A stretch of 64,000 nucleotides of DNA. It comes from a virus. The notes beneath the pieces were generated by a model. The model searched no databases. It saw only the letters and a program-made list of their open reading frames with translations, and was not told the DNA's origin. The stretch spans positions 1 to 64,000 of IMG/VR virus record IMGVR_UViG_3300043409_002109; one strand, given 5' to 3'. Position numbers and translations under genes: made by a program. Positions within the stretch are counted from its first letter, which is position 1, and each line of letters opens with the position of its first letter. Positions 29,355 through 47,600 of the stretch are shown here, in pieces.

Positions 29355-29390
29355 GCTTAAAAATTTGCACTTACGCTTATTCTTCCTGCC

Positions 29391-29403
29391 TGCTATTATA
29401 AGT
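29391..29403 (+). promoter_or_regulatory. Possible promoter (TG-C-TATTAT; TAnTATAAG also at ~22673-22681)
   Basis: Extended -10-like element between the terminator and the GAGGTG RBS of 29427. Confidence 0.35.
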
Positions 29404-29426
29404 AACTAACTCATTATGAGGTGTAA

Positions 29427-30922: not shown

Positions 30923-30951
30923 AATAAATATACCAGGAATGAAGATAATTT

Positions 30952-31728: not shown

Positions 31729-31735
31729 GCTTAAG

Positions 31736-32422
31736 ATGATAGATGTAGACGCCCTCCTCGAATCCGAGGGGTTGTACATAACAACCATGCCTGATGGGCG
31801 AAGCTATACCTATCGTTTACTTGGTCTAAAGGAATACCGGATATTCAAGGCCCTCAGGGAGACTGGGGTTCTTTCTAGGTATCACCTCCACGATAAGGTT
31901 TTTGATCGTTGCTATCTTGGCAACCCAGACATGATCGATGGAGACACTCCAGCAGGGTATACCCTGTCTATTGGGGAACTGATTATGTGGCTGAGTGGTG
32001 ATGGCGCCACTCACGGAGATAAAGAGGATTTAGAGAACGCTCGGATGATGTATCAGGGCGATACCGTGTATGAACATATGAGGAGAGTATGTCTTCGGGC
32101 ATTTCCCTCTTACAAAATTGAAGATTTAGATAGGTGGACGAGACCGCTACTTCTACAAAGATTCGTTATAGCCGAACATATGCTTGCGGAGACTGGAGAA
32201 TACCAGCCCATTGAACTTAAGAATATTATGACCGCCGAGCAGAAGGCCAAACACCAGAAGAGACAGGAAGCTCCTGGTGGAGGTATCGACTTTGCTCGTG
32301 AGAATGCGGGGCTAAGTAAGGAGATGGCGGGGGCTGAAGGCCACGATGTATTCGACTTGCCTCCTGATCAATTCCAAAGGAAAATGAGGATCGCGCAGAG
32401 AATGGACAGACAACGTGCTTAG
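31736..32422 (+). CDS. Tail assembly chaperone-like protein 2 (paralog of the preceding gene)
   Basis: YTYRLLGLKEY..RCYLGNP..AGYTLSIGELIM parallels the previous ORF. Confidence 0.6.
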   Translation: MIDVDALLESEGLYITTMPDGRSYTYRLLGLKEYRIFKALRETGVLSRYHLHDKVFDRCYLGNPDMIDGDTPAGYTLSIGELIMWLSGDGATHGDKEDLENARMMYQGDTVYEHMRRVCLRAFPSYKIEDLDRWTRPLLLQRFVIAEHMLAETGEYQPIELKNIMTAEQKAKHQKRQEAPGGGIDFARENAGLSKEMAGAEGHDVFDLPPDQFQRKMRIAQRMDRQRA

Positions 32423-32434: not shown

Positions 32435-35400
32435 ATGGCATTTGAATCTTATAATGCACAAGACATCTGGAGTTCTGGAGAAGCCCCCGGTAGCAGTAGT
32501 AATCTACTAGCTGCTGGTAAGCTAGGCCTAGCGGCAGGGGCGGGGATAGGCGGGTTCCACTTATTGACTAAGAACCGCCCAGACGGCACTCGTGCTATCG
32601 ATGACGTGTCTGCATTCCTGCGTACTGCTGGAAACCTTTCCCCATTCCAGATCGGGAATACCTTTCGTGTTCCTGAATTCCTATCCCCCTTCACTAGCCC
32701 CTCCTATCAGGGCTTAAAAGGCGGGGAGCATGTATTTGAACAGAGCTTTCTGAAGACTTCTGAGACCACTCAGTACCTTCAGAAGGTCACAGGCAAAAGC
32801 TATGAGGAGCTTCATGCTTTAGGCTTGAGCCAAGAGGCCCTCCTCGGCAGTGACGCTGCCGATAGTCTTGTCTACCGGGCAGGTAAGACTGGCTCTCGGG
32901 GTAGTTTATTCGTAAGACGTAGAGGAGAGGAGTCTCTTCTCTCAGATGCTGTATCTCTCATGAGTAGAGATACAGAGATCGATCCTTTCGTCAGGGGAGC
33001 GAGGGCTGAGAATAAAGCATTTAAGGGCGTCCTTCAAGCCCTTGATATGTGGAAGAATGATAAGTTTGATTCAGAGAGAGTCTTAGCCTCGACAGACAAA
33101 CGATCTGAGGTCGCTTTCATCCCCTCTCTCGACGGACCTATGAAGACGAAGGGGGACTTCCTCCGACGCACTAGCTATGTTCGAGGAGTTGCGGCCTTCG
33201 AAGTCAGCAGATTCAATGACTTGATGGGCAATTATGCTCATCAGATATTTGGAGAAACTGGCGGGAACTTTACAAAGACTGTTCTAGGTATCTCCAACGA
33301 AGTTAGGCCAGGACCAGCAAGTGCCTTACTCGCAAGATATGCAGGTAGGGCGGCCATGCTCGGAGGGGCCGGGCTACTAGTTGCCCAAAGCGACTGGGTA
33401 CGCAGACAAGGGGGACTCCCAGGGCAGGCTGTGGCTGCTGCCGGGACCACTGCAGTGGGTGCATATGCCGCTTGGAAGATGGGGGCGAATAACAAGCTTG
33501 TAATGATGGGAGCCGTAGCAAGCTTCTTCGGGCAGATGACTTTACCCGGATTTGATAAGGGAATCTTCGAAGGAGTGGCTAGTACTGCTGCTGGACTAGA
33601 TGTTTTCAGAGCTAATCCCCTAAACCCATTTGGTTACTATCGTAGAACCTTAGAGGGATTTGCGCCCGGTATCTCTGATTGGAAGACTGGTGCTGTCTTA
33701 GGTCTCGGTGTTATGGCGGCTAGTGGCATGAGAATGCCCGGAACTGGTAAGAGAATTTCTGAACATCTTGTTGAGAAGCTAGGGGCAACAAGGCTCGGGC
33801 TGTCTTCTGGTGCTCTTGGCGTAGCGCCAGATGAACTACTCAGTACAAGAGATATGTTTTGGAGAGAACTAGAGGCTAGCAATAACCCCATAGCACGAAG
33901 CTCTGAAAGATGGCGCACCATGAGCGGGCGCCGGGAGATCTATGGGGAGCTAAAGGGCAGCCGCCCAGAAATACTTTCACAGATGAACAAGCACTGGCGT
34001 TCTGCCGAGGATGCGCATAGAGATATGATGCAGAAATCCTCTGAGCATGGAGCCAATAGGAAGTTGCTAGAAAGTCTCAGCGACATAGCTGATAAGTACA
34101 AGGATGGGAATGGCATTCAGAGGAAGATAATGATGCAAGTCGAAGGCTTTGCCTCTCAGACTTATCATTCTTTCTTCGGTGCTAATGCGAGCTATGACAA
34201 GGCCATGAGGTCTGAAATCCAGAAACTTGGATTTAGCGGAATCACTCCTGTGGGGAAATTCGGACGATTCGCTACACTTGGGCTGGCGGCTTTGGGCATT
34301 CAGCAGCTTGTGACTGGCGGGCTCCTTGGTTCTATGGAGTCTTCTGGAGATCTTAGCGACATCTATGCTGGACGTAAGCTAGTCGAAGTAAAGAAGAGCA
34401 GAGGGTGGGAGTCTGGCTCACAACCTTTTGGAGGTACTGAGACTTCATATTTCCGTCCTCATAGCTTGGCGTTGATGAATGCGCGCACTAGAGAAAGGGG
34501 TATCTGGGGGGAAGACGAGGATGAGATTTCTCCTATCACTAAGTTCTTCAAAAAGAACTTTACCTACGACCTAGAAAGGCAGAACTATTATGACAGGCCT
34601 TATCCTATATCCTCAGCCTTTGGTCAGGATGTCCCTATCATTGGCGGGCTGCTGGCGAGCACTGTTGGGCGAATCATCAAACCAGCTAAGTTAATGCACT
34701 CTGAAGAATGGGCAAGAGAAGGAGAAGGCGGGGCAGAGTTTAAGTCTATCTATAAAGGTAGTCGGCAAGAGCCAGCTTATGCTTTAGGAGCCCAAGGCCC
34801 TGGAACTCCAGTTAGTCCATTCGCTGCGACTGAACAAGCCATGTTTATGTCGGATCAGATGAGACAGCTCTCAGGCTTCCCGGGATTCATAAGAAATACG
34901 CTCCAGAAGATTGTTACTGGGAATCAGAATTTCATGCACAATCAGCCTGTGCTTGCTAGTTCTGGAGAGATGACTAGTCCGAGCAGAATGTTCTGGGAGA
35001 GCGAGCTTGGCGGCGGCTTCTTAACTACTGAGCTTTGGCGACGGCTATTCCCTAGAAATCAGCCGGGTTTACAGAAGGTGAACCCAATCCGAAACAATAT
35101 GCCTTACTGGATGCCAGATAAGTTCCATACTGGAGACCCCTACGCCTCGGTTCAATGGGGCGAAGCGAGACTTCCCGGAGCGGGGTACTCTGCGCTACAC
35201 CCTGAGCTTAATGGTATCGATCCAGAGGAATACCCTCTACTCGCTAGAATGGCGATCTTAGGGGATGTGGCGCCTGCCTCGGTTGAGTATAGGAGAACAC
35301 AAGAACAGGTTTATCTAAAGCGCCAAGAGGGAGGTTACTCCGAGGGCCAAAATAGACTTATTGATCAGATAGATCAACAAGTCGCTCAGCAGATGAACCA

Positions 35401-36472
35401 ATACACCTTTGAAGAACAAGATCCTAGATCTATCAATCTACCTGGAGCCGCTCCTGTTAGAGGGCTGTGGAATGGCGCTTTAACAGGTATCCGCCACCTT
35501 GCCGCGCCGGCTGAATACATGATTCCAATGGGTTTCAGACCTACTCAGAAGTTGATGTCTGACTATAGAGGCCCGATTGAGGCTTACGAACATGAGAGAT
35601 TGTATGGTACCCAAGTAGCTTTCTGGGATAAGCCCATGAGAGACTGGTTCAGACCAGCTGCTTACTCGGCGGCGCATATGATGGGTTATGATGGGAAGCC
35701 CCTTTGGAGAAGGGAAGCTGACGCAGTGGACCAGCGTTTCGATGAAATAGAATTCCATAAGTGGATGACCCTGGCCTTGCAAGCTGAGCAAGCAGGAGAC
35801 TCTGAGGGCAAGAGCCGGTATATGTGGGCAGCGTCAAATACCCGGACCGGTGTGAACCCCCAAGGCTCAGCTTTGAGCATGTACTGGACTCTTCCTGAAT
35901 CTGAAAGAAGTTTCTTCAACTCTTTCTCTGTAGCTCAAGGAGCGGATAGAAGCCGGATTCTAGAAATGGTCCCAGAGGACCAGGCCCATCTTTATCAGGC
36001 TTTATGGTCTAGGTTAGATAGCGGAGATCCCTCCGTTATGGCTGGAGGAGGACAGGGCGTCGATGAAAACTTCTTGCGCACCAAATATTATGGCCAGTCT
36101 AAAGAGGCTATGCCTTCAGAGGACTTCATTGGGTGGCACGAAGAAGTAGACCTCAGTGATATCAAAGTGCGCTATGCAGAACGCTATGCAGCTGATATCT
36201 CTGACTATGGAGTTTGGGAAAGCCAGCTGAAGAAATCAGAGGGACAAGAGTTCCTTGATGGCTCGGAGGGATATATAGGTTCGCCTAATACCATTGCGGC
36301 TCAGCAAATTAAAAGTAAAATATGGAATATGTCGGGCAGTACACAAAATAGACCTGGACTTACTTCGGTCTTTAGTTCTAATATGGGGTCTACAGTTCGT
36401 ATGACTTATAACGATCACAGAGATGGTGATATTTACAGTGTCTTCCAGAAGATGCTAAGCGGCGGCTATTAA
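32435..36472 (+). CDS. Tape-measure-like protein (1345 aa)
   Basis: First long gene after the chaperones; multiple Gly/Ala-rich hydrophobic segments; GAGGAG RBS. Confidence 0.65.
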   Translation: MAFESYNAQDIWSSGEAPGSSSNLLAAGKLGLAAGAGIGGFHLLTKNRPDGTRAIDDVSAFLRTAGNLSPFQIGNTFRVPEFLSPFTSPSYQGLKGGEHVFEQSFLKTSETTQYLQKVTGKSYEELHALGLSQEALLGSDAADSLVYRAGKTGSRGSLFVRRRGEESLLSDAVSLMSRDTEIDPFVRGARAENKAFKGVLQALDMWKNDKFDSERVLASTDKRSEVAFIPSLDGPMKTKGDFLRRTSYVRGVAAFEVSRFNDLMGNYAHQIFGETGGNFTKTVLGISNEVRPGPASALLARYAGRAAMLGGAGLLVAQSDWVRRQGGLPGQAVAAAGTTAVGAYAAWKMGANNKLVMMGAVASFFGQMTLPGFDKGIFEGVASTAAGLDVFRANPLNPFGYYRRTLEGFAPGISDWKTGAVLGLGVMAASGMRMPGTGKRISEHLVEKLGATRLGLSSGALGVAPDELLSTRDMFWRELEASNNPIARSSERWRTMSGRREIYGELKGSRPEILSQMNKHWRSAEDAHRDMMQKSSEHGANRKLLESLSDIADKYKDGNGIQRKIMMQVEGFASQTYHSFFGANASYDKAMRSEIQKLGFSGITPVGKFGRFATLGLAALGIQQLVTGGLLGSMESSGDLSDIYAGRKLVEVKKSRGWESGSQPFGGTETSYFRPHSLALMNARTRERGIWGEDEDEISPITKFFKKNFTYDLERQNYYDRPYPISSAFGQDVPIIGGLLASTVGRIIKPAKLMHSEEWAREGEGGAEFKSIYKGSRQEPAYALGAQGPGTPVSPFAATEQAMFMSDQMRQLSGFPGFIRNTLQKIVTGNQNFMHNQPVLASSGEMTSPSRMFWESELGGGFLTTELWRRLFPRNQPGLQKVNPIRNNMPYWMPDKFHTGDPYASVQWGEARLPGAGYSALHPELNGIDPEEYPLLARMAILGDVAPASVEYRRTQEQVYLKRQEGGYSEGQNRLIDQIDQQVAQQMNQYTFEEQDPRSINLPGAAPVRGLWNGALTGIRHLAAPAEYMIPMGFRPTQKLMSDYRGPIEAYEHERLYGTQVAFWDKPMRDWFRPAAYSAAHMMGYDGKPLWRREADAVDQRFDEIEFHKWMTLALQAEQAGDSEGKSRYMWAASNTRTGVNPQGSALSMYWTLPESERSFFNSFSVAQGADRSRILEMVPEDQAHLYQALWSRLDSGDPSVMAGGGQGVDENFLRTKYYGQSKEAMPSEDFIGWHEEVDLSDIKVRYAERYAADISDYGVWESQLKKSEGQEFLDGSEGYIGSPNTIAAQQIKSKIWNMSGSTQNRPGLTSVFSSNMGSTVRMTYNDHRDGDIYSVFQKMLSGGY

Positions 36473-39400
36473 TGAATTTCTTGAGCAAGCTTAATGAAGA
36501 TAAAGATAAGGTCCCAGGCATTCTAGCTGGTGTTGCGGGTACGCTTCCTATTGCTTTAGCTGTAAATTATTCCTGGCGGAAAATGCAGTCTAATCAGCCT
36601 ATTTCCGCTTCCCAGATATTAGGTAATAGAAGCCCTCTTGGTGACATGGGCAGAGATATAGGGAAGGGCCTTCACGAGAGCTATGCTAAAGACAATAAGG
36701 CTGTAGATAAGATCACTGAGAAGCTCCTGAAAAGTGATGAGCTAGCCAAGATAATGGAGAAGAAGGACCAGCGGGCAGCGATTGTACAATCTATCTTGAC
36801 TACGATAGAAGATCAGAGCACTGGGCTGAATAGTGAAACTTTAGCGAAGACTAAAGAGCAACTAATGAAGATCGTCGCAGATGATGCGGACTCTCCAGAG
36901 GCTAGAGAGATTGTGAAGGCGGCTCTTACTAGTATTCAGGAAAGTGGTAGCGACCTAACACAACAGAGGTTCGCAAACCGTTTTAGAGAATTCAAGAAAC
37001 AGGGAGGTGGCCTTGTCGCTCCAGTAGCTGAGTTCAGAAGCACTCAGGCTCTGAATGTTATTAAACATGCTACGATGAAGGATCGTAGCGCTGTGCTTAA
37101 GCTCGTAGGAGGTGATGCTGGGCGTGCAGATTTCCTTCAAAGTCAGTACACCCGCATCGCTGATAGGGTTGGGAAGAAAGATCTAGAGACTGCTCTTCAG
37201 ATTGTAGAGATGGACAGTGGCATGGGACAACGAACTCTTATGGCTAGGGTCTATTCTGGAAAGAAAAAGCAATTTGCATTTCAAGTGAACCTCCTAGCAA
37301 ATGCTACTGGAGTTGATGCCCCCACTCTATACCCAATGGGAGAGAATGGGGCTACTAGGTATTTCGGCCCCGTAGGTGTTGTTGACGCAGGCGATGTTGA
37401 GAAACTGAATGCCACTCGAAAGAATAAGTGGGGACTAGAGCACCTCAGGGGTCGCTTAAAGAGGGTTGAGGCTCGCGAAATGGATATAGCCCTAAGCCTT
37501 TTAGAGAGTGACCAATTCGGTGTTCGCATGACTCAAGCGGCACGCACTGCATATAATGAGCAGCGGGCCGAGATTTTAGAGCCTGCTAGTCGTGTACTCT
37601 CTCCGGGCATGGAAAGGAGGAACAGGGGCAAGACCGCGGCTGCCTATCGCGAGCACCAGATGAGGCAGGCACGCATTACTCAGAATAAAATTGTTGTGAG
37701 TGGTCTTTTTGGTAAAGACGAAGCGGCAAAGGAAGCCTTGGCTAAAGGTGCCTTCTCTGTTGATCCCAGTGTGCTAGATAAGTTTGAGGCTGGGGAGACG
37801 AGAGTTTCCGCTCCCGTAGACGGCCGGCAGTACTTGAATCTTCAGCTTCAAAAAGACTCTGCCTTCACGGGATTCCGGGCCGGTGCTTCTGCTAATAGAA
37901 TATCTTTGCCTGTTATTGCCCGAATAGAGCAAGCTGTTGGTCGTAACGGTATGTACATATCAAGGGAGAGCGTCCCCCGGAAGATGGGAAGGCTCTCTAG
38001 GTATGACGTAGGGGCTGGCGGTGCGCCCATCGGTTGGCGAGAGCAGCACCAAGGGGGAGTTAACAGATTCGGCCTCTTCGATGCCACTGGCGGGCGCGGA
38101 AGAGGCTTCCTGGCTAAGAGCGAAGGCTCTGGTATGGCTTGGGCTCCCGGAGGTCTGGGAACATTAATGAATGACAGAACTATACCCATTCTAGATGCGA
38201 AAGAACACAACATGCTTACGACCGACTTTATGGCTCATCTTGAAGAAGAGTTTAAAGCTGGTAGAGAAATGAGTACTTATGACGTTATGGACAATGGTAA
38301 GCTAAGACATGCTACCACTGGACAGGAGTGGGATCGATGGTTAGGCCAGGGCTCAAGCGGAAATAGAGCTATCCACCTTGACCCTCAGACGAAGAGGTTC
38401 CAGATTGGCATTGCTGAGAAGAATGAGACTGGAGGCAAGAAGCAGATAAACCTAGCTATTGTGTCGGAAAGAAACATGGAGAGTGGAAAGGTCTTCGCTC
38501 CTGCCCTGAAAGCAACTCATGCTGTACCTGAACAAGGGTTCGAGGGTCGCCTAGCAAGAGACTACAAGTTAGGCACAGAGTTCTTCGCACGTCATGGTAT
38601 AAAGCTGACGGATACGATAGCTGCCTCTGGAGACCAGTACAAGAAGGCTCCTCTGTTTTTGGCAAGCCAACTTACGAGCGCTCTTGGAGCACTCGATAAC
38701 TCTGTTGATCCATTTGATTTTGTCGAAGACAGCGTTAAGGGTTATAAGGGGGACTCTCCTTTCGGAGGAAAAGATGTTGGTAAGGTAGCAGATATTGTGA
38801 TGGGTAGATTAGCCAAGGGGCATCGGGCTGGCCGGATTCATTCTCAGGATGTGGGGGCGGCGCTGGGCTTGCTCTATCAGGGCAGTGGATTAGCGAGACT
38901 GCACGACCCTAAAGGGGAGAATAGTGCCGATCCGTTGTGGCAGAGGGGAGGGAAGGAGAGCTATAAGCTTGATCCCGAGGCCCTAGAGAAGAGAATGATT
39001 CATCATTTTGGTGAAGATGCTTATAGGAATGAGCTTCTCCCACAGATGAAGACAGGACTTGCTATTCAGCCTTTGACTCTGTTTCCCGGTGAAGCCCATG
39101 GCGATTGGGGGCTCGGGAGAGGCTCGATAGAGCCACGTTTCTTGGAGTTAACCTCTGGGAAGCTAAGAGAAGCCGGTATGAATAATGCCGACGTTTCTGA
39201 GTTCATGGTAAGAGTGCTGAAGAGAAAAATTGGAGGAGAAGAGGGATTGAAGCTCGTCGCCCCCTTAGAACGGATGCAAGCTTCAGTTCTCAACAGGACT
39301 ATGCCCGGAGCAACCGGAGGTCCGACCTTTACTCTAGATCAGCTGATTGACGAGATGACAAAGCTAGGGCAGAAGACTAAAGGTAAAGGTAATTTTTCTG

Positions 39401-41688
39401 ATTTCCTCGCGACTCAGAAGGATGGCATTACTTTAGACCTGAGTGACACATCGAATAAAGCTAAAGCCGCGATCTCGCACGCCGCTGGAGAGCAGCTAGA
39501 GGGCCAGAGGTCTATCTACATGGCAGGTGGAGACGCTATGGAATTCATGAGAGGTACTGAGATTAAACAGGCTGCTGGTGAGTCTATTAAGATAGGCTCA
39601 GACTATGACAGGACAGTTAACCATTTTATTGAAGACCTTTTAAAAATGCGTACTAATGATGAGGAAGCGGCTAGATCTGCTTCCAAATCTATGCTTGAGT
39701 ATAGGAAGAATATAACTACTTTATTCTCAACTGCGTTGGTTGGCACCGCTAGAGGTAAAATAAAGGGTGCTTCATTCAGCGTAGCAGAAACATTGTTTGA
39801 TGACTTAGCTTTGACTCCTGAACAGTTCAAGTTAGCTGATCAACTTGATAGTGGTGCTAAAGGCCAAGCAGTCTTTAGAGATACTGCATCCTTCATGTCC
39901 TCCTTATCAGACTGGATGGGGAATGACAAAGGCAAGCTGGCTAGAATGTATTTTACTGGAGCAGAGAGAGCTGCAGCAACCGGCAAGATGAGTACTGGTA
40001 TATGGGGTCTGAGCACCAGAAACCCTCAGCTATTTAGACGTAGCACGAACATCACTCAAGCTTTCAGGGATCCTAGACAAGTGGCAAGAGGTGAGGCAGA
40101 CGTAGCATTCTCAAGAATCAAGAAGTATCTTCCTGGAGCTTTAGAGGAGTTGAGTAGGAAGACACAAACTGAGATAGGCGGATTCAAAGACATTGCTCTC
40201 CTAGACGATAAGGCCCATGGGAACGCTATAAATAGATTCTTCGATACTATCGCTGATCGACAGTCAGACTGGTGGCAGTCTGAGGGCGGTGGTACAGACT
40301 CGTATCTCAGAAGGGAACATGATGTCGTGATTACTGACAGTAAGGGTAATTCGCCAAAAACAATCAGGAAGGTAGACTTTGGTTTCCAAGGTGCAGCATA
40401 TCAGGACAATGACGGTGATCAGCCTCAGAATATGATTCTTGATGAAGAAGATCGAGTCAAACTCAACAAGGCATTTAAAGATAAGGAGCGAGCTGCAAAG
40501 TATTTTGCTACCGATTCACAAGGTATTGCTCAGCAGAAGATTGCTGACCACTACCTTAAGATAGGAATGGGCGGCGAGTCAGTTAGTCTCGACAGTGAGG
40601 CCCCTCCTGAGTTGCGTCAGATGAGTGAAGACTTCTTAAAGGAAAAAGCTCAAGATAGAAGTACTGGTAAGGTCAACAACGCAGTAGATAGGTTGCGTAG
40701 AGCTTTGCTTAATAATGTCGCAGGCAATGAAGATAACATCAACGAGGCAATGGCCTTTATCAACACCCTGCCAGAGCAGACTACTATCAAGTCAAAGCAG
40801 AGAACCAACTACGAAGCTCTAGCTGAAATGCTCTCTCGGGCTATTGGCGCTACGTATGATGGAGATAGCGATGCCTTACCTAATCTTTTCAAAACGACTC
40901 TATATCCTCAAGATAAGATGCCCGAGTTATATGAGGGCGTGAAGTACTCCATTCAAGGACGAAACCTGCCCAACAATGTGCAGGGTGCAGTCGGCGAAGT
41001 GAACCTAACAAGAGTTCTGGATACTATAATGCACTCAGTCCAAAACCATATTGCGATTGGTGGTGGAGAGATGGATACTCTTGGAGGCTTAACTCGGGGC
41101 CTGATGGGATCTCAGGCTGGTGTTAACTTCGATAGATATCTTGAGGGTAAGAGTGGAGTCCAGGCTGGTATTGCGGCCGGTGGAGGAAGAGGTGCCGCTC
41201 AGGATGCGGTGATTGCTGCCGAAGGTGCATTCGCAAGAGTCCGAGCAGCGGCAGGGAAAATAGACGGTAGGATGGCGGGAATAGCCACTCTAGGGCTTGG
41301 GGCAGGAGCAGCTATACTAGGCATGGCCGGGGCAGACGGGTATGACTCAGAGCCCCTAATGGCTCCTGGTGACATGCCAAGTTCTTATGTGCAGAAGGAG
41401 ATTAGCTCCTTTAACCTCCTTGATAATTCCTCTGCACGAGAGCAAGGTTCCCCTATGTCCGACCCCTATGATATGATGAACACACCTATTAATACTGGCA
41501 CCGCCTACATGAATAGACCAAATGGGTATAATATTCGTGGAGAAATTGGTAGTATGGGTGGAGTCGGTCAAGTAGGGGGTTATGTTAATAATCTAACTCG
41601 TGGTTTCGGACGAGGCTCTATTATGGTAAATGATACCAGACGACCGATAACCAGTTCCTACGTAGATCGAATGGCAGGAGAATACTAA
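36472..41688 (+). CDS. Putative single-chain two-barrel (double-psi beta-barrel) virion RNA polymerase with tape-measure-like termini
   Basis: GKVFAPALKA (38485-38514), GKIKGASFSV (39754-39783), RNPQLFRRSTNITQAF (40018-40065), DNDGD (40405-40419), in the beta then beta' order of cellular RNAP. Confidence 0.7.
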   Translation: MNFLSKLNEDKDKVPGILAGVAGTLPIALAVNYSWRKMQSNQPISASQILGNRSPLGDMGRDIGKGLHESYAKDNKAVDKITEKLLKSDELAKIMEKKDQRAAIVQSILTTIEDQSTGLNSETLAKTKEQLMKIVADDADSPEAREIVKAALTSIQESGSDLTQQRFANRFREFKKQGGGLVAPVAEFRSTQALNVIKHATMKDRSAVLKLVGGDAGRADFLQSQYTRIADRVGKKDLETALQIVEMDSGMGQRTLMARVYSGKKKQFAFQVNLLANATGVDAPTLYPMGENGATRYFGPVGVVDAGDVEKLNATRKNKWGLEHLRGRLKRVEAREMDIALSLLESDQFGVRMTQAARTAYNEQRAEILEPASRVLSPGMERRNRGKTAAAYREHQMRQARITQNKIVVSGLFGKDEAAKEALAKGAFSVDPSVLDKFEAGETRVSAPVDGRQYLNLQLQKDSAFTGFRAGASANRISLPVIARIEQAVGRNGMYISRESVPRKMGRLSRYDVGAGGAPIGWREQHQGGVNRFGLFDATGGRGRGFLAKSEGSGMAWAPGGLGTLMNDRTIPILDAKEHNMLTTDFMAHLEEEFKAGREMSTYDVMDNGKLRHATTGQEWDRWLGQGSSGNRAIHLDPQTKRFQIGIAEKNETGGKKQINLAIVSERNMESGKVFAPALKATHAVPEQGFEGRLARDYKLGTEFFARHGIKLTDTIAASGDQYKKAPLFLASQLTSALGALDNSVDPFDFVEDSVKGYKGDSPFGGKDVGKVADIVMGRLAKGHRAGRIHSQDVGAALGLLYQGSGLARLHDPKGENSADPLWQRGGKESYKLDPEALEKRMIHHFGEDAYRNELLPQMKTGLAIQPLTLFPGEAHGDWGLGRGSIEPRFLELTSGKLREAGMNNADVSEFMVRVLKRKIGGEEGLKLVAPLERMQASVLNRTMPGATGGPTFTLDQLIDEMTKLGQKTKGKGNFSDFLATQKDGITLDLSDTSNKAKAAISHAAGEQLEGQRSIYMAGGDAMEFMRGTEIKQAAGESIKIGSDYDRTVNHFIEDLLKMRTNDEEAARSASKSMLEYRKNITTLFSTALVGTARGKIKGASFSVAETLFDDLALTPEQFKLADQLDSGAKGQAVFRDTASFMSSLSDWMGNDKGKLARMYFTGAERAAATGKMSTGIWGLSTRNPQLFRRSTNITQAFRDPRQVARGEADVAFSRIKKYLPGALEELSRKTQTEIGGFKDIALLDDKAHGNAINRFFDTIADRQSDWWQSEGGGTDSYLRREHDVVITDSKGNSPKTIRKVDFGFQGAAYQDNDGDQPQNMILDEEDRVKLNKAFKDKERAAKYFATDSQGIAQQKIADHYLKIGMGGESVSLDSEAPPELRQMSEDFLKEKAQDRSTGKVNNAVDRLRRALLNNVAGNEDNINEAMAFINTLPEQTTIKSKQRTNYEALAEMLSRAIGATYDGDSDALPNLFKTTLYPQDKMPELYEGVKYSIQGRNLPNNVQGAVGEVNLTRVLDTIMHSVQNHIAIGGGEMDTLGGLTRGLMGSQAGVNFDRYLEGKSGVQAGIAAGGGRGAAQDAVIAAEGAFARVRAAAGKIDGRMAGIATLGLGAGAAILGMAGADGYDSEPLMAPGDMPSSYVQKEISSFNLLDNSSAREQGSPMSDPYDMMNTPINTGTAYMNRPNGYNIRGEIGSMGGVGQVGGYVNNLTRGFGRGSIMVNDTRRPITSSYVDRMAGEY

Positions 41689-41689: not shown

Positions 41690-44600
41690 TTGATTTCTGA
41701 TCTTGCGAGCCCCCTTACCGCACCTGACATTGATCTCGTTCAAAGAAAAGAGATCTTTGTTATAAATGATATTGCCTTAGTGGTTCCTCCCACTTCTATC
41801 TCTGTGCAGAAGGAGGATATGACTTACACCTGGCGCACGCTGCGTACCAGAACAAGTACGAAGGTTCCTACCGGGCATGGTAATATAAATGTCGGGCTTT
41901 CTTTGGTCTTCTTAGAAGATCGTATGTTCGACCTTCATCGTTTAATCGTCCAGTTACGCTCAAGCCCTTTCTGTTATGTTGAGAATCGTTATCTACGGGA
42001 AACTATTATCCCTGAGTTTAACCTCTATCAGGCTATGGCCTTCTGTGTAGATGCTATCCAGATATCTCCTTTACCGGGAACCTCTGATGCTTGGTTGTGT
42101 CAGCTCTCTTTGAGTTGGTTCAACTATCTCCCCTATACTGCTAACTTTATGTTCAGAGAAGATTGGGAAACAGAGTGGCTTGATAGCGGGGGCACTGGCG
42201 GAGGCCAGGCTATTAAGCAGAGCATAGGCTGGAAGTGGAATAAAGAAACTGGTAAGCGAGAGTTCACTCCATCAACTACCTCTCGACGCGAAGCTGAAGG
42301 AACGAATGTAAAGGAGTGGAACCTTCAGCAAGAGGGGTATGCGGATAAGGCCAATCGCACTCTGTTCGACATGGAAGCCTTGCACCTGGGGCAAGAGTTT
42401 GACATGCTTCCCTTGCCGGGAAATATGGCTCCCTCTCAGATAGCTTTAGACCCTCGTAATAGCAGAATCTATGTGCGCTATATTAACTTACTCCAGAGGG
42501 ATGCTCTTTGGGATAATTTTGAGATAGATATTGAGCGCTTGCTGACCGATGCGCAGATACCACTAGAAGGATTCTTCGGAGTTCACGAAGAGCCTGATGG
42601 GAGTAAGCAGACTTGGGGTCTGCATTCGGGACCTACCTCCTCGAATGAGGAGCACCGAAAGGCATGGTATGGAGTGATGAGAAAGGTTACAAGAGACATG
42701 CTTTCTTACAATGGCAAGATCTCTTTAGTCTTTCAGACCTACCAGACACTCGACATGCCTAATGAATGGAGCAAGGCTTTAGGTCGGCTCTCTGCTGTTG
42801 TCAGGAAGGAGTTTAACCCAGGCGCTAGCGAGACGAACCCGCTCTATCAAGGTGATTGGGTCACAATTCATAAGTATAGTAATAATATGACGCAGGCTAT
42901 CAGGAAGCATCCTAAGAGGACGGGACTTACCAATCCTAATGGCTTCAGATCTCCTCTTGGGGCGCCAGATAGAAGATTCAGTATTAATGAACTACGGAAC
43001 GGAGTCTCTTCACGGATATGTGAGAGAAGCCCCGAGAAAGATGTAGAGCTTGGGTACCCCCCCACGGGGAGGAACGAAGGCAGAGTTCACTGGGGAACGG
43101 ACTTCGGGACCGGTAAACAAGAAGGTTGGAAAGTTTACGCCTGTCGGCCTGGGAGAGTCACTGGTGTGAACTACGGATCCGTGGATGCCAGCAAAGTCGT
43201 GTGGAAATCTTTCCGTGAAACGGATGGGAAAATCTCCCAGATAGAGGGCGGCAAACTGTATGAGGCATGGCTAAGGACCATGACTGACGCCCTCGGAGCT
43301 TCTTCTGTAGCGAAGAGCAAGAAGGTCGTGTCCCTTGCCGGTACTGCTCTCCAGCAGTACCAGAAGTTCGGGACTATAATCCAAGATGTGACTTATCCAG
43401 AGATCTACTATTTCACAGACTTAACGAGTGAAGGTGGAAACTGGATTCGAATAGAGCATAACACTGGAGGCGAGCCAGGTGTCGGGAGTTGTGATGGCGA
43501 CATCTCGGTGTATATGCATCTTCGAGAAATATTCGTAAAGGTCGGAGATATCATAGGTGGCGCGGAGGGGAACCCAGGACATGATATCGATCAACCAATT
43601 GGCATTGTAGGGCAAACTTCTACCCTTAGTCCGAAGTATATAGATTGGTTCGTAAAGAATAAGACTCGTGGCGCCCAAAGGGGTGGGCCGGCCGCCGGCC
43701 GCCACGCAGACTGGGAGAAGGGAAAGTTCCAGCAGCTAAAACCTTTTGAGTATCAAGAGATTGTCTCTGAGTTGCGGCAGTCTGGGATTCCAGATCGTAA
43801 GAATAAAGGCGGATTCACACTCCCTATCCACCTCCACTTTGAGTACTGGGAGAAGGAAGGCAACGGTGCTCCGCTTGATCGATCTGTAGATCCTTATGTG
43901 TTCAAGGATTTCTCGAACACTCCAATGGTCAAGGAAGGCTATGTAATGGTTGACCCAGTTCCTTCCTTCGAGGCCGGGTCTCAGGGTATGGAGGGTAAGG
44001 AGAACTACGTCCTCTGGATAGACAATACAGCCGCTATTGCGAAGATCTCTGCCGCTATCGTAGCCAAGGAGATAAAGAAGGATAACGGAGAGAGCTATGA
44101 GGTAGATACGGCGAAGCTCGAAGATATGATAGAGAAGATGGAGGAGCTATCTAGTCAAGGATGGTACCATTACGAGGGGGCTATGAAGCTCCCTAACGTC
44201 TGGTATAAAACTTGGATTCTCAACTACCGACATGGAAACAAAGACGAGCTTAGAGACCCTAACGTTCTCCAGAACTTTTTTAATAGCACTGATAGTGCCT
44301 ATACAGATCTGAGCACAGTTTTCACTGGGGTAAGTGGCGGGTTTACGAACATTGTTGCGCGCATTCCCATCCTCTCATATGAGTACCCGACTCTTCAGCA
44401 TCTTGGTTCTATAGAGCCTCACTACACTTTTGAGTTTACCCTATTGGATGATCGGTTTGACGAAGAGGGCGGCAAGGGTCTCCACGGTATACCTTCTAGT
44501 GGCCAGCTCTTAGAGGGTATGAGAAGTATACTCCAGAGAAATGCCCGTAAATACAGGGAAGTCAAAGATAGTTGGAGCTTAGCTACAGATACTTTTATGA

Positions 44601-47600
44601 CTAGGTTACTTGGTTCTTTCCGGGTGAGAGATGCCATCTTCAATAACACTACAACAGGTGTTGTCAATCAGGTAACTTTATTGAAGAGAACGATTATAGA
44701 ACGCTCTGACAATGGGACTGTAGAAGGTAGCCCAGGGCTGTCCTATCTATCCTTCGAGATGAGCGAGACGAACCCCTATGATGAAGAAGAATTTGTTAAT
44801 ATCAACCCTGCATTCTTTGACGTAGAGACTGCGAGGAAGGAGGCTCTGCAGGCTCTCTATAAGCTAGATATCGCTGGAGAGTTCAAGGACAGTGTTCTGC
44901 CTATTCTTATCGGGAGTCTGGCGAACAGAAATATTCTAGATCCCAATAACGAGGAGGGGTATGGCCAGTTTAGCGTTGATAGCACTAGTGATTTAGCCTA
45001 TGCCCTAGGAGGGAGCCAGAAAGTTATACTTTATCGGGGTGATGATCCCGAATTTAAAAAGGGTTTAGGCTTTCAGGACAGCTTCGTTATCCAAGATCCA
45101 GGCGGGGTCTACGAGAGGCTGCTGCGTAATGAGTTAGAAGGAGACTTCGATAAAAGTGTTACTATTAGAAATGGCTTGCTTCTCGTAAACGCTAATGAAG
45201 GAGACTACGGGGAGCCAGAGTTTTCGACCCCGTATATCGCTGAAGACTACGGAACTTTTGACGAGGGCGCCGTTTCAAACGAAACGAGGAAGCCTAGAGC
45301 TTCCTTCGATATCTCCCGGATATTAGAGTCTTCATCAGATCTCGCTCAGCTTTCTAAGTTGAACTTGCCTAAAATCGCTGACTATTGGCAGCTTCTAGAT
45401 GCAGTGCTTAAGAGTGCAGAGATATCTCTGGCTGAGGAAAAAACTCTTGTCAGTCCCAGGAGTTCGCTCTCCTACCAGACGGGAGGACTTAGCAAGGAAA
45501 GGGTACAGGCAGAGCTTTATGATCTTCCGGTAACGCCCTCCATGTGGAGACTTTGGCAGTATTACCAGATAGCTGCAGGGGCAAAGTGGATCGTAACCGC
45601 GAACAAAGTTCCTAGTGCTGGCTGGAAAACTGATATTCTCCTAGGTCCCGTTGAAAAAATGTTCTTCGCTTCTGTTACGCAAGAGAATGAATTTGATGCG
45701 ACTGGTGAGGCAGCTTTTACTGTATTGAAGAGTAACGCGGGTTGGCTTACTTGGAGCGAAGTAACGTCGGAGGCTCTTTCTCCTGAATTACTTAAGAAAG
45801 CTACTGATACACATCTTTCTTTTGGTACAGACATCTTAACCTTCGGTGGGATTGGCTTGGATAGCTTGGGCGTTGGTGCGACTCTTATTATCGATCAGGG
45901 TCGTGATGGTTGGGCTCAGGTAACTGGGGCGAAGAAAGCAGAGGATACCAAGTGGATGGGGACCTTTCTCCGAGGCGGCACTTTGGCAGCAGAAGAGAAG
46001 CTCACTGAGATATACCTTCGGCATATGTATCCTAGCAATGCCGTCTGGCTGACTGACCTCGCTAAATATTATGCGAAAGATACTCTTTTCTCTCCTATTG
46101 TTGCATTGATTAATGGGAATGAGGGGCCTCTCGCCTCGGTCCATGCCCAGCTGCAAGAGAACTTGCACAGCTGCGGGTATTGGAGCTTTGGTTTTTCAGA
46201 CAGTGCGATAGGGAAAGCTTTCGGGGCTGGGTACCCCCGCTTTACTGTGCGCAAGGAGGATTTCAAAACAACTGCCGATGGCCTCCTCTACTACGATAAT
46301 ACTTCAGGAGAGAGAACTCCATCAGGAGTTTCGGGCATAAAAGATTATGACTCTAGCTTTATCTGGCCTGTCTCTGAAGATGTTGAAATAAAGAAGCTAA
46401 GAGAATTTAAAAGCGCCCTCGCACGTCTCGCCGATGACATACTCTCTGATCCAAAGATTCTAACTGCTTTAGGTTTACAGAGATATATAAACATATTGGC
46501 GTCTCAAAAGACTATCAAGGGTACAGAGTGTTATCCTGATTTACAACTTCCTGAGCATCCTTATTACGGCGATACGAAGGATGTCTCTCCAGATTTTTAC
46601 TTCTGGAATATGTATGATGACGGACAGGCTTTTGCCCCAGAAGTTATCGAACGTATTCGGACTTCAGCCGATCACATTGTATCCAACTGTTATGAGTCAC
46701 TTCGGGTGATGCAGGGCCGGAATGATAAGGCTAATGAAATGCCTTATACAAATACTAGTATCTCTGATCAACAGATTATTACTCCATTCAGATATAATGC
46801 TGAAGCTACTGACGGTAATAGTCCCAACCCATCCAATGTCGGGCCTACTGATATCCCTTGGTATGAAAATGATGCAGCAGCAGATGCTGTAGCGAAGTTC
46901 AATGGAACTATAAAAACTGCTGGGGAGAAAAGCATTAAGGATGCCAATCAGGTTAGCGCGACTCCTCGGAGAGCGTTAAAGGTGAACAAGGCGGAAATTT
47001 CTGCTATCAACCCACCCTCTGCTTCTATGTCGGTTACCGAGGGGCAGATAGATACTGGAGATAGCAAGAACTTTAAGGGTGGCTTGCATTACCCTATGCG
47101 AGTGACCCCCGAGAAGTACACAGAACTGAGGAACCACCTTCTCTCTTCGCGGCCGATGTTTGGTAACAAAGCAGCTTACTTAGGAAAGCAATTCGAAGAG
47201 AATGCCCCTGCTCCAGAGGTAGCTCAAGTTCGGGGAACAGCGCTCCAGACGCCCCTTCAGTACACGCATTTATTCGATGAATCTTCCCTAAAACAGCTTG
47301 CTTTCGACTCTAGTAGAGATATCGTTTCTCAGAAAGTAACTATGAGGAGAGCATTCCCGACCTTCAAGCTCTTCTTTATTGAAGAAGATGAAATCGAAGA
47401 TCATCTTATCGCATATGATGATTTCCATTCTTATAATGCTGTGAAAGAATTCTCAGTAGTCCAAAGCCGCAAGATTGCGGCCGACGTAGCGATCATCACT
47501 CTACAGAACGTTTCGGGTACGCTAGATGCTACCCGCAGAGATGCTATTGCTGACGTTGACTACTTCACGAAGAAGCCTAAGAGCAAAGATAAGAACCAAA

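What the first reader, a model, noticed from the sequence alone, without database searches (positions are those of the whole stretch)
36472..41688. Hidden single-chain two-barrel RNA polymerase in the tail module (candidate tail-packaged virion RNAP)
Seen: GKIKGASFSV (aa ~1095), LSTRNPQLFRRSTNITQAF (R1183) and YQDNDGDQ (D1312/D1314/D1316), then STGKVNN...EQTTIKSK; upstream EGSG and GKVFAPALKA (K673/K680). Established: cellular beta' has GKRVDYSGRSV, NRAPTLHRLGIQAF and NADFDGDQM in this order; beta supplies two lysines (GDK..RHGNKG); single-chain homologs include YonO, the crAss-like phage virion RNAP and the tape-fused virion RNAP of Thermus phage P23-45. Inference: this is a divergent virion RNAP with a variant DNDGD motif and a large (~95 aa) insert between the R-x-P motif and DxDxD. 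Unlike P23-45 it is a separate gene coupled (TAATG) to the tape measure of a contractile-tailed phage.
Basis: partly seen in the sequence, partly recalled or inferred. Interest (0 to 1): 0.92.

Follow-up and report, generated by a model that had tools for sequence, protein, structure and literature searches.

The report
Tail-module single-chain RNA polymerase
A 1738-residue gene among the tail genes of an uncultured 150-kb contractile-tailed marine phage encodes a very diverged one-chain version of the cell's RNA polymerase core, which the phage probably carries in its particle and injects to start its own transcription; this strategy is known from a few phages, but this protein family is unannotated.

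Summary
The protein has no Pfam, PHROG, PADLOC, PDB-sequence or phage tblastn match. A profile search finds 177 unannotated metagenomic clusters. In 116 full-length representatives the three aspartates of DxDxD are invariant. R1183 and P1185 are kept in 115 of 116, K673 in 114 and K680 in 112. An AlphaFold2 model of aa 470-1560 (pLDDT 88.6, pTM 0.88) matches only two-barrel RNA polymerases. Its first half matches Rpb2/beta (Z up to 11.0) and its second half Rpb1/beta' (Z 8.7). Both halves match QDE-1 (Z 10.4), P74-26 gp62, P23-45 gp96 and crAss gp66. The RNA polymerase reading is therefore strongly supported.

Packaging in the virion is inferred, not shown. The gene is the middle one of three translationally coupled giant genes between the tail-tube and chaperone genes and the baseplate. 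It has hydrophobic N- and C-terminal segments, and it shares a C-terminal motif with its upstream neighbour. Which giant gene is the tape measure is unresolved. Acinetobacter phage ME3 gp036 sits in the same slot and has the same predicted fold.

This is a new variant of a known kind. The scan has reported analogous tail-module polymerases in at least 15 other genomes, none sequence-similar to this one.

The parts
36472..41688 (+). Gene of the 1738-aa single-chain two-barrel RNA polymerase (P0001)
   Evidence: ORF; family; fold
36508..36567 (+). N-terminal hydrophobic, TM-like helix (aa 13-32)
   Evidence: Hydropathy scan; helix of low confidence in the AF2 model
37108..37950 (+). Alpha/beta domain (aa ~213-493), weakly like the N-terminal part of beta/Rpb2-type subunits
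   Evidence: pLDDT >90; vaccinia Rpo132 Z 5.5 (219 aa) and bacterial beta Z 5.4 (238 aa)
37879..39111 (+). Beta/Rpb2-type half containing the first double-psi barrel (aa 470-880)
   Evidence: Pol II RPB2 Z 11.0 (255 aa, chain 710-1058), vaccinia Rpo132 Z 10.9, bacterial beta Z 8.2, AR9 and PhiKZ nvRNAP Z 7.9
37918..37944 (+). Conserved ARxEQxxGR motif (R484, Q487, R491)
   Evidence: R484 110/116, Q487 112/116
38488..38511 (+). K673 and K680, the candidate pair of basic residues of the beta-type barrel
   Evidence: 114/116 and 112/116. Both lie on a beta hairpin (model E203-207 and E210-215)
39289..41151 (+). Beta'/Rpb1-type half (aa ~940-1560): clamp-like N-part, second double-psi barrel, long helices
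   Evidence: Rpb1 9mu7_A Z 8.7 (363 aa), 2pmz_A Z 8.3, Mtb beta' Z 7.7 (404 aa). DPBB-only hits cover model 630-855
39754..39783 (+). GKIKGASFSV (G1095, K1096), counterpart of the beta' GKRxDxSGRS strand
   Evidence: for position; G1095 107/116, K/R1096 98/116, G1099 112/116
40018..40026 (+). R1183-N-P1185, the RxP motif
   Evidence: R 115/116, P 115/116
40405..40419 (+). DNDGD (D1312, D1314, D1316), the candidate Mg-binding triad
   Evidence: all three Asp 116/116; family variants DFDGD 33, DFDAD 16, DADGD 10, DNDGD 5. It is the only DxDGD in the 150-kb genome
40774..40797 (+). E1435...K1440.K1442 motif after the long helices (candidate trigger-loop region)
   Evidence: E 116/116, K1440 111/116, K1442 114/116. 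The role is inferred only
41272..41328 (+). C-terminal Gly/Ala-rich hydrophobic segment (aa 1601-1619)
41629..41652 (+). C-terminal NDTRRPIT motif, shared in form with the end of the upstream giant protein
   Evidence: D1721 114/116, R1723 111/116, P1725 107/116; similar ends in 0305phi8-36 ORF145 and ORF146
32435..36472 (+). Upstream giant ORF (1345 aa), overlapping by TAATG; tape-measure-like only by position
   Evidence: Conserved partner in all related loci. No family match
41690..50734 (+). Downstream giant ORF (3014 aa): M23-like HWGTD motif, hydrophobic segments, baseplate-hub/endolysin-like domain
26295..28631 (+). Tail sheath gene, showing a contractile tail
   Evidence: phrog_16991, 1.2e-41
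28643..32422 (+). Tail tube paralogs and chaperone-position genes
   Evidence: Synteny with 0305phi8-36 ORF140-144 and ME3 gp030-034
51948..53180 (+). Baseplate J-like wedge gene, marking the end of the giant-gene block
13..2383 (-). Five co-oriented pyrimidine-tract+TATGG elements upstream of small minus-strand ORFs. Candidate early promoter/terminator units; the link to the polymerase is only conjectural

Best explanation
ORF 36472-41688 encodes a catalytically competent single-chain two-barrel (double-psi beta-barrel) nucleotide polymerase. It is most likely a DNA-dependent RNA polymerase. A beta/Rpb2-like module (aa ~213-880) supplies K673 and K680. A beta'/Rpb1-like module (aa ~940-1560) supplies GK1095-96, R1183-x-P1185 and the Mg-binding D1312-x-D1314-G-D1316. 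It is made late together with the tail proteins. It is then loaded into the particle with its two giant, translationally coupled neighbours, probably in or at the tail lumen and hub. On infection it is ejected with or ahead of the DNA. Its hydrophobic ends then hold it at the envelope channel while it transcribes the first phage genes without the host polymerase. What is shown: the fold, the motif conservation, the synteny and the hydrophobic segments. What is inferred: catalytic activity, DNA template, packaging, ejection and the identity of the genes it transcribes. My odds are about 0.9 for an active two-barrel polymerase and about 0.6 for a virion-carried, injected one.
For: Family and conservation: there are 7 homologs at 21-45% identity and 177 clusters found by profile search. 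The catalytic-type residues are invariant in 116 representatives.

Fold: the AF2 model of aa 470-1560 has pLDDT 88.6 and pTM 0.88. In an exhaustive structural search the top 22 chains are all two-barrel RNAPs, split colinearly into a beta-type and a beta'-type half. Both halves match QDE-1 (Z 10.4, 431 aa), RDR2 (Z 9.2), P74-26 gp62 (Z 8.1), P23-45 gp96 (Z 6.6, 328 aa) and crAss gp66 (Z 5.3, 492 aa). In the re-ranking of Foldseek's top 1000 PDB chains, 306 score Z >= 8, and all 50 rows shown are RNAP second-largest subunits or QDE-1. Foldseek's weak top-50 list is also almost entirely RNAP chains.

Context: the genes run in the order sheath, tube, chaperone-position genes, 1345-aa ORF, this ORF, 3014-aa hub-containing ORF, baseplate J. 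The three giant ORFs are coupled: TAATG overlap upstream, and TAA-A-TTG downstream. The triad is conserved in all 8 distinct related viral contigs examined.

Cultured relative: Acinetobacter phage ME3 has the same triad. Its middle gene gp036 is the best viral structural match (Foldseek E 4.4e-8, prob 1.0) and carries RxP...GDHDQD.

Membrane and docking features: hydrophobic segments lie at aa 13-32 and 1601-1619. A 'phi-x-phi-N-D-x-R' motif about 20 residues from the C-terminus is shared with the upstream giant protein in six phages. Similar ends occur in 0305phi8-36 ORF145 and ORF146, which that record annotates as virion proteins by mass spectrometry.

Other polymerases: no sigma-70 region-2 domain, canonical Rpb1 domain or paralog of this polymerase was found in the CheckV-complete 150-kb genome. 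The search for a T7-like polymerase was uninformative because its control also found nothing.

Precedents: P23-45 gp96 and crAss phi14:2 gp66 are experimentally shown to be injected two-barrel RNAPs encoded among structural genes (PMC10770324; bioRxiv 10.1101/2020.03.07.982082).
Against: There is no experimental or proteomic evidence that this protein is in a virion.

It has no sequence-level similarity to any known RNAP. hhalign against gp96 gives probability 0.2, and the PDB profile search finds no RNAP (its one weak, unrelated hit is a cytochrome c555 trimer).

Foldseek E-values against the PDB are all above 0.02. The tool itself warns that Z values of 8-11 for a 1091-residue model can be 'middling'. 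The weight therefore rests on the exclusivity and colinearity of the RNAP matches, not on any one score.

I could not measure whether K673 and K680 face the Asp triad.

The syntenic giant proteins of 0305phi8-36 and Moorella phage MTATph1 have no DxDxD at all. The slot therefore does not always hold a polymerase.

The closest whole-chain structural neighbours, QDE-1 and RDR2, are RNA-dependent enzymes, so the template preference is open.

A folded polymerase of more than 1000 residues does not obviously fit in a tail tube.
Confidence: 0.62

Rival explanations
1. The protein is itself the tail tape measure, or part of a composite one. On this reading it is a P23-45 gp96-like protein whose polymerase core sits inside a length-determining, channel-forming chain, and it is not a separate cargo enzyme beside a tape measure.
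For: It occupies the slot of 0305phi8-36 ORF146, which is annotated 'hypothetical tape measure protein'. It has hydrophobic N- and C-terminal segments and a conserved C-terminal tail like its neighbour. In gp96 the order is polymerase, then metallopeptidase, then membrane segments. Here the polymerase gene is followed 1 nt later by an ORF with an M23-like motif and hydrophobic segments.
Against: About 1350 of the 1738 residues are predicted as compact globular polymerase domains, not an extended helix. Two other giant proteins are available for the measuring role. Family lengths vary from 1332 to 3265 aa, mostly through insertions inside the polymerase. That would be odd for a ruler.
Confidence: 0.15
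2. It is an active two-barrel RNA polymerase that is not packaged. It would be a non-virion enzyme that happens to be encoded in the late structural operon and works inside the cell, for example on late genes.
For: No packaging data exist. The phage has no other recognisable polymerase or sigma factor, so a single enzyme might serve intracellularly.
Against: The position between tail chaperone-type genes and the hub is conserved in the 8 distinct related contigs examined and in ME3. The gene is translationally coupled to structural giants. It has hydrophobic termini and a C-terminal motif shared with a structural neighbour. An enzyme made only late could not start infection.
Confidence: 0.12
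3. It is a two-barrel polymerase with another activity: RNA-dependent RNA synthesis like QDE-1 and RDR, priming, or DNA synthesis like PolD. It would not be a transcriptase.
For: The best whole-chain structural matches are QDE-1 (Z 10.4) and RDR2 (Z 9.2). The genome has a split DnaE, according to an unchecked scan note.
Against: No PolD chain appears among the top matches. crAss gp66 is also closest to QDE-1, yet it is a DNA-dependent transcriptase. A dsDNA phage has no known need for an RdRP.
Confidence: 0.07
4. It is an inactivated polymerase relic kept only as a structural or ejection protein.
For: It has diverged extremely. It is 22-29% identical between phages whose sheath proteins are 42-49% identical.
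Against: The exact residues needed for catalysis are the ones that stay invariant over 116 lineages. That is the signature of selection on activity.
Confidence: 0.03

Closest known systems
Thermus phage P23-45 gp96 (and P74-26, G20c, TSP4 homologs): tape-measure-fused virion two-barrel RNAP (PMC10770324; PDB 8H2M/8H2N)
   Same: Both are single-chain two-barrel polymerases with a DxDGD-type motif, encoded in the tail module next to metallopeptidase- and membrane-segment-bearing sequence. Neither has detectable sequence similarity to other RNAPs. The fold match is Z 6.6 over 328 residues. The terminases of the two phage groups are distantly related.
   Different: This one is a separate gene, not the N-terminus of a 5002-residue tape measure. 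Its phage has a contractile tail, not a siphovirus tail. hhalign finds no similarity (probability 0.2). The connector between the barrels is about 400 residues, and its N-part aligns to the beta' clamp region, whereas gp96 is clamp-less and flat. No second, gp64-like polymerase was found in the genome.
crAss-like phage phi14:2 gp66 virion RNAP (PDB 6VR4)
   Same: Both are giant virion-module proteins with beta-type then beta'-type barrels in one chain. Both are closest overall to QDE-1. gp66 is experimentally shown to be an injected transcriptase for early genes. The structural match spans 492 residues (Z 5.3).
   Different: gp66 belongs to a podovirus-like crAss virion and has a DFDID motif and a ~140-residue connector. 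Here the phage is a myovirus and the connector is ~400 residues. A 107-1490-residue insert lies between RxP and DxDxD.
Acinetobacter phage vB_AbaM_ME3 gp036 (YP_009595868.1, 'hypothetical protein', 1603 aa)
   Same: It is the middle gene of an equivalent triad (gp035 1263 aa, gp036 1603 aa, gp037 2329-aa hub) after the sheath, tube and chaperonin genes. It is the best predicted-structure match among viral proteins (E 4.4e-8). It carries RxP at 1174 and GDHDQD at 1217.
   Different: No HMM or hhalign sequence similarity was found. The RxP-DxDxD spacing is the canonical ~40 residues. It is uncharacterised, so it adds a cultured handle, not functional knowledge.
Neurospora QDE-1 / plant RDR2 (RNA-silencing two-barrel polymerases)
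   Same: These give the best match over both halves: Z 10.4 with 431 residues for QDE-1, and Z 9.2 with 360 residues for RDR2.
   Different: They are eukaryotic enzymes that use RNA or ssDNA templates. Sequence identity is about 9-10%. They have no membrane segments or virion context.
Catalytic core of multisubunit RNAPs (bacterial beta/beta', Rpb2/Rpb1, poxvirus Rpo132/147, PhiKZ/AR9 split subunits)
   Same: The motif order GK...RxP...DxDGD follows beta', and K-x6-KG follows the beta two-lysine loop. The per-half fold matches are Z 8-11.
   Different: Here it is one chain with no other subunits. No Pfam RNAP domain is detectable.
Phage N4 virion RNAP (T7-like fold)
   Same: It is a functional analogue: a giant polymerase packaged and injected to transcribe early genes. 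This statement rests on my own knowledge and on Iyer et al. 2021.
   Different: It has an unrelated catalytic fold (RRM-palm). It is a capsid cargo of a podovirus.

Membership tests
Two-barrel (double-psi beta-barrel) RNA polymerase superfamily | Two DPBB domains forming one core, here in a single chain with the beta-type barrel before the beta'-type barrel | tested here: met
   In the AF2 model (pLDDT 88.6), residues 1-411 align to the Rpb2/beta DPBB region (Z up to 11.0). Residues 471-1091 align to Rpb1/beta' (Z 8.7). Isolated DPBB proteins align to 630-855 (Z 6.0-6.4).
Two-barrel (double-psi beta-barrel) RNA polymerase superfamily | DxDxD metal-binding triad in the beta'-type barrel, preceded by GK and RxP motifs in beta' order | tested here: met
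   D1312, D1314 and D1316 are 116/116. R1183 and P1185 are 115/116. G1095 is 107/116. The triad lies in the loop before the last strand of the region matched by DPBB proteins.
Two-barrel (double-psi beta-barrel) RNA polymerase superfamily | Two basic residues from the beta-type barrel facing the active site | tested here: inconclusive
   K673 (114/116) and K680 (112/116) sit on a beta hairpin inside the segment aligned to the Rpb2 hybrid-binding region. No coordinates were available to measure their distance to the Asp triad.
Two-barrel (double-psi beta-barrel) RNA polymerase superfamily | Bridge helix and trigger loop after the beta'-type barrel | tested here: inconclusive
   Long helices at model 869-898 and 910-944 are followed by the invariant E1435...K1440.K1442. 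Alignments to Rpb1 and beta' run to the model's end. Residue-level equivalence was not obtained.
Two-barrel (double-psi beta-barrel) RNA polymerase superfamily | Template-dependent RNA synthesis abolished by Asp-to-Ala changes | not testable with these tools
   This needs a biochemical assay.
P23-45 gp96-type tape-measure-fused virion RNAP | Polymerase and tape measure in one polypeptide | tested here: not met
   It is a separate ORF with a stop at 41686-41688. The next ORF starts at 41690. Longer family members owe their length to internal insertions, not to fusion with the hub protein.
P23-45 gp96-type tape-measure-fused virion RNAP | Sequence or profile similarity to gp96 | tested here: not met
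   hhalign of the 50-sequence profile against gp96 1-1200 gives probability 0.2. An HMM search of the P23-45 genome found nothing. The fold-level match is Z 6.6.
P23-45 gp96-type tape-measure-fused virion RNAP | Clamp-less flat architecture | tested here: inconclusive
   Model residues 471-625 align to the N-terminal, clamp-forming part of Rpb1/beta'. An isolated archaeal clamp domain aligns at Z 6.8. This suggests a clamp-like part, but no 3D inspection was possible.
Virion-packaged (injected) phage RNAP, as a functional class | Protein present in purified virions | not testable with these tools
   Only indirect evidence exists: the structural-module position, coupling to giant structural genes, and a C-terminal motif resembling those of MS-verified virion proteins ORF145 and ORF146 of 0305phi8-36.
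Virion-packaged (injected) phage RNAP, as a functional class | Early transcription independent of the host polymerase, from dedicated promoters | not testable with these tools
   The candidate elements (Y-tract+TATGG) cluster at the head of the minus-strand early block and are conserved in relatives. No transcription data are available.
crAss-like gp66 virion RNAP family | About 140-residue connector between the barrels, with QDE-1-like extended helix elements | tested here: not met
   The spacing between K680 and G1095 is 362-606 residues (median 401) across the family. The fold match to 6VR4 is weak (Z 5.3, rmsd 7.2).
YonO-like single-chain RNAPs (SPbeta YonO; 0305phi8-36 ABS83659.1 per PMC7824862) | Sequence or profile similarity to YonO | not tested
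   No YonO sequence or structure was in hand. The HMM of this family found nothing anywhere in the 0305phi8-36 genome. That argues against close kinship with that phage's YonO-like gene.
Tail tape measure protein | Extended, mostly helical chain directly after the tail chaperone genes, whose length sets tail length | tested here: inconclusive
   The gene is second, not first, after the chaperone-position genes. Most of the chain is predicted globular. Tail length is unknown.

The most novel reading that the evidence does not exclude
A large, mostly marine lineage of contractile-tailed phages carries a complete 'inject-and-transcribe' device. On this reading the polymerase and the upstream giant protein dock into the tail or hub through the same C-terminal phi-x-phi-N-D-x-R motif and leave through the tube with the hub-bearing giant protein. 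The membrane-anchored polymerase then reads the conserved hairpin/pyrimidine-tract/TATGG units at the head of the early gene block as the DNA enters. That would make early transcription independent of the host, and the family would define a third, structurally distinct branch of injected two-barrel polymerases, one with a clamp-like part.
Probability: 0.3. Interest if true: 0.8.

Novelty: new variant of a known kind. Interest (0 to 1): 0.68.

Why it matters
Injected two-barrel RNA polymerases have been demonstrated in only two phage groups, crAss-like podoviruses and Thermus siphoviruses. This family would extend the strategy to contractile-tailed phages. It is also large: 177 clusters at 50% identity, including Tara Oceans material, all unannotated.

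All 116 members have more than 100 residues between RxP and DxDxD. A published motif filter, [RK]xPx{20,100}DxDxD (Supplementary Data 4 of PMC10770324), would have excluded every one of them. That may explain why the family is missing from surveys.

The family bears on how a >190-kDa enzyme is stored in and passed through a tail. It also bears on how far the cellular polymerase core can be reduced and rearranged. It gives a cultured entry point, Acinetobacter phage ME3 gp036, for experiments.

Tried and rejected
Sequence searches on the 1738-aa protein found nothing useful.
- Pfam gave only a sub-threshold D5_N hit, and PHROGs, PADLOC, PDB phmmer and the PDB profile search gave nothing relevant.
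- tblastn against 50,697 phage records found no match.

Profile comparisons with related or analogous proteins were all negative.
- hhalign of the family profile against 0305phi8-36 ORF146 and ORF145, P23-45 gp96 and ME3 gp036 gave probability below 1% each.
- An HMM search of those four phage genomes found nothing.

A scan of 185,579 species genomes for prophage copies found none.

I tested whether the 2000-3265-aa family members are fusions with the hub protein. BLASTP of P0123 against the 3014-aa ORF shows no relation. The extra length is internal insertion.

I looked for a second polymerase or a sigma factor in the genome. The Pfam T7-like RNA_pol search was uninformative because its control was also silent. 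Sigma70_r2, Rpb1_2, a DxDxD regex and the family HMM found nothing besides this gene.

I tested whether the ATG inside TATGG is a start codon. It is not: the ORFs from it are only 5-16 codons.

The language-model atlas search on the 1345-aa neighbour gave scores of 0.81, which is uninformative.

The 'moraphage' lineage paper (PMC12619734) describes a different, T4-like group with no polymerase.

Full report
**What the window is.** The window is the first 64 kb of a 150,205-bp IMG/VR virus record that CheckV rates complete. Its plus strand carries a myovirus structural module:
- large terminase, 10647-12908
- portal, 16544-18271
- major capsid protein, 21308-22609
- tail sheath, 26295-28631
- three tail-tube paralogs, 28643-30922. 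PHROG labels these 'major head protein', but the homologous 0305phi8-36 ORF140 is noted as tail tube.
- two genes in the chaperone position, 30952-32422
- three giant ORFs of 1345, 1738 and 3014 aa
- three small genes, then a Baseplate_J gene, 51948-53180

The finding is the middle giant ORF.

**The observation.** The ORF is open from 36472 to 41688. The gene overlaps the upstream ORF by TAATG. It is followed, one base after its TAA, by the TTG start of the 3014-aa ORF.

**No annotation reaches it.** Pfam, PHROGs, PADLOC, PDB sequences and tblastn against 50,697 phage genomes give nothing.

**The family.** A word-based search found seven homologs at 21-45% identity. An exhaustive profile search with aa 470-1560 found 177 cluster representatives, 136 of them below E = 1e-30. 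Members are unnamed or 'hypothetical protein' and include Tara Oceans material. None occurs in 185,579 species-representative prokaryote genomes.

I aligned 116 full-length representatives, each at most 50% identical to the others. The residues that matter for a two-barrel polymerase are the ones that do not change:
- D1312, D1314, D1316 and E1435: 116/116
- R1183 and P1185: 115/116
- K673 and K1442: 114/116
- K680 and Q487: 112/116

The window's DNDGD is a minority form. DFDGD (33) and DFDAD (16) are commonest. The order GK...RxP...DxDGD follows cellular beta', and K-x6-KG resembles the beta two-lysine loop. The cellular motifs are quoted from memory and from Iyer et al. 2021.

**The fold.** AlphaFold2 on a 50-sequence alignment gave a model of aa 470-1560 with mean pLDDT 88.6 and pTM 0.88.

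Foldseek against the PDB found no hit below E = 0.02. Even so, its top 50 were almost all RNAP beta, beta', Rpb2 and phage nvRNAP chains.

The Foldseek-independent structural search over 48,161 chains was decisive in pattern. The first 22 rows are all two-barrel polymerases.
- Model 1-411 aligns to the DPBB region of second-largest subunits: vaccinia Rpo132 Z 10.9 (266 aa, rmsd 5.0), Pol I A135 Z 9.4, bacterial beta Z 8.2, AR9 and PhiKZ nvRNAP Z 7.9.
- Model 471-1091 aligns to largest subunits from their N-terminus onward: Rpb1 Z 8.7, archaeal A' Z 8.3, mycobacterial beta' Z 7.7.
- Single-chain enzymes align across both halves: QDE-1 Z 10.4 (431 aa), RDR2 Z 9.2, P74-26 gp62 Z 8.1, P23-45 gp96 Z 6.6 (328 aa), crAss gp66 Z 5.3 (492 aa).
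- Isolated DPBB proteins align to model 630-855.

Re-ranking Foldseek's top 1000 chains gave 306 with Z >= 8. All 50 rows shown are RNAP second-largest subunits or QDE-1, led by human RPB2 710-1058 at Z 11.0. For scale, the published gp66/QDE-1 superposition has 479 equivalent residues at 8.6% identity.

A second model of aa 1-520 has pLDDT 82. It shows a low-confidence N-terminal helix, a generic helical bundle (aa 55-180) and a confident alpha/beta domain (aa ~195-460). That domain weakly resembles the N-terminal part of Rpo132 and beta (Z 5.5 and 5.4). The polymerase-like part therefore spans roughly aa 213-1560.

I had no access to the coordinates. The juxtaposition of the Lys pair and the Asp triad, and the residue-level identity of the bridge helix and trigger loop, remain unmeasured.

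**Peculiarities of the family.**
- The connector between the two barrels is 362-606 residues (median 401), against about 140 in gp66 and QDE-1.
- The RxP-to-DxDxD distance is 107-1490 residues (median 124.5). All 116 members exceed the 100-residue limit of the filter '[RK]xPx{20,100}DxDxD' used in the published survey of viral two-barrel RNAPs.
- The 2000-3265-aa members owe their length to insertions here, not to fusion with the hub protein.
- The polymerase evolves faster than its neighbours. Between the same phage pairs the sheath is 42-49% identical, the 1345-aa protein 38-46%, the 3014-aa protein 32-38%, and the polymerase only 22-29%.

**Is it carried in the particle?** This is inference, from five lines.
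1. The triad of giant ORFs (about 1360, 1750 and 3000 aa) is conserved in all 8 distinct related viral contigs examined (10 loci were retrieved, two pairs near-identical), downstream of sheath homologs where the contig reaches that far.
2. The three genes are translationally coupled.
3. The polymerase has hydrophobic segments at aa 13-32 and 1601-1619. The 3014-aa protein has four such segments.
4. The polymerase and the upstream giant protein end in a similar motif about 20 residues from the C-terminus: phi-x-phi-N-D-x-R, here VNDTRRPIT versus YNDHRDGDI. It recurs in six phages. Similar ends occur in 0305phi8-36 ORF145 and ORF146, which that record annotates as found in virions by mass spectrometry.
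5. The C-terminal part of the 3014-aa protein (aa ~2588-2770) is homologous to the 'baseplate hub/endolysin' proteins of 0305phi8-36 (ORF147), ME3 and MTATph1. Its N-terminal part has an M23-like HWGTD motif with a sub-threshold Pfam hit.

So the order polymerase, then metallopeptidase-like sequence, then membrane segments matches the domain order inside P23-45 gp96. Here it is split over adjacent genes.

Which of the three is the tape measure is unresolved.

**Cultured relatives.** Terminase, sheath and hub searches place the phage distantly with Moorella phage MTATph1, Acinetobacter phage ME3 and the Bacillus 0305phi8-36 group. The terminase also hits the P23-45 group.

0305phi8-36 and MTATph1 have equivalent giant genes, but these contain no DxDxD at all. 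Iyer et al. 2021 report a YonO-like polymerase elsewhere in 0305phi8-36.

ME3 has the same triad: gp035 1263 aa, gp036 1603 aa, gp037 2329-aa hub. Its middle gene gp036 is the best hit of my model among predicted viral structures (Foldseek E 4.4e-8, prob 1.0). It carries RxP at 1174 and GDHDQD at 1217. No HMM or hhalign similarity to gp036 is detectable.

A second ME3 protein of 798 aa and giant proteins of Microcystis phages MaMV-DC and Ma-LMM01 also match. I did not follow these up.

**What it might transcribe.** No sigma-70 region-2 domain, canonical Rpb1 domain or paralog of this polymerase was found in the genome. The search for a T7-like polymerase was uninformative because its control also found nothing.

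Another scan note pointed to pyrimidine-tract+TATGG elements. I confirmed five exact, co-oriented copies on the minus strand at 13-2383. Only three other copies occur in the remaining 148 kb. They lie upstream of small minus-strand ORFs at the head of the leftward non-structural block. The ATG in the motif is not a start codon.

The same motif is clustered and co-oriented in relatives whose polymerases are only about 25% identical. There are 7 copies in 4.2 kb of G002, six in 5.1 kb of G001, and 11 in G008, against reversed-pattern controls of 0-2. Counts are at control level in 0305phi8-36 and MTATph1, which lack this polymerase.

In G001 and G002 the tract is the T-run of a GC-rich hairpin whose stem sequence varies. 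In other words, it is a terminator-like unit followed by an invariant TATGG. This fits repeated early promoter/terminator units. It does not show which polymerase uses them.

**Comparison with the literature and the scan.** The kind is known: crAss phi14:2 gp66 and P23-45 gp96. I found no paper describing this family or a polymerase in ME3 gp036.

The scan itself has reported at least 15 analogous tail-module two-barrel polymerases in other uncultured myovirus genomes. None is a sequence look-alike of this stretch.

**Verdict.** The polymerase reading is strongly supported (about 0.9). Virion packaging and injection are plausible but unproven (about 0.6). This is a new variant of a known kind.

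Noticed in passing
window 13-2383 (minus strand); also genome 146442; L022 (G002:7591-11813); L023 (G001:23106-28207): Pyrimidine-tract+TATGG elements are clustered and co-oriented at the head of the non-structural gene block. They are conserved in relatives that carry this polymerase family and are at control level in 0305phi8-36 and MTATph1. In relatives the tract is the T-run of a variable GC hairpin, so these are terminator-like units followed by an invariant TATGG.
   Followed up: partly
window 36400-36469 and 41620-41685; L001, L003, L004, L008, L009; L012 ORF145 and ORF146 ends: The 1345-aa and 1738-aa giant proteins end in a similar phi-x-phi-N-D-x-R motif about 20 residues before the C-terminus. 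It occurs in six phages, and similar ends occur in two MS-verified virion proteins of 0305phi8-36. It may be a common docking or loading signal.
   Followed up: partly
window 41690-50734: The 3014-aa ORF combines an M23-like HWGTD motif (aa 467-471; the second His motif is not canonical), four hydrophobic segments and a baseplate-hub/endolysin-like domain (aa ~2588-2770). It starts at TTG one base after the polymerase stop codon.
   Followed up: partly
window 28643-30922: Three adjacent paralogs hit PHROG 9206, labelled 'major head protein'. The homologous 0305phi8-36 ORF140 and ORF141 are noted as tail tube and tube paralog, so the PHROG label is misleading here.
   Followed up: partly
L025 (Acinetobacter phage ME3) and BFVD hits: Besides gp036, a second ME3 protein (A0A172Q0S6, 798 aa) and giant proteins of Microcystis phages MaMV-DC and Ma-LMM01 match the polymerase model (E 1.5e-6 to 2.4e-3). 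They may be further undescribed two-barrel polymerases, and in ME3 perhaps a virion/non-virion pair.
   Followed up: no
family alignment (proteins P0099-P0123): Some family members reach 2000-3265 aa through insertions of up to 1490 residues between the RxP and DxDxD motifs, that is, inside the catalytic barrel region.
   Followed up: partly
window 26295-50734 versus L001, L002, L008: The polymerase diverges much faster (22-29% identity) than the sheath (42-49%) and the two flanking giant proteins (32-46%) between the same phage pairs.
   Followed up: yes
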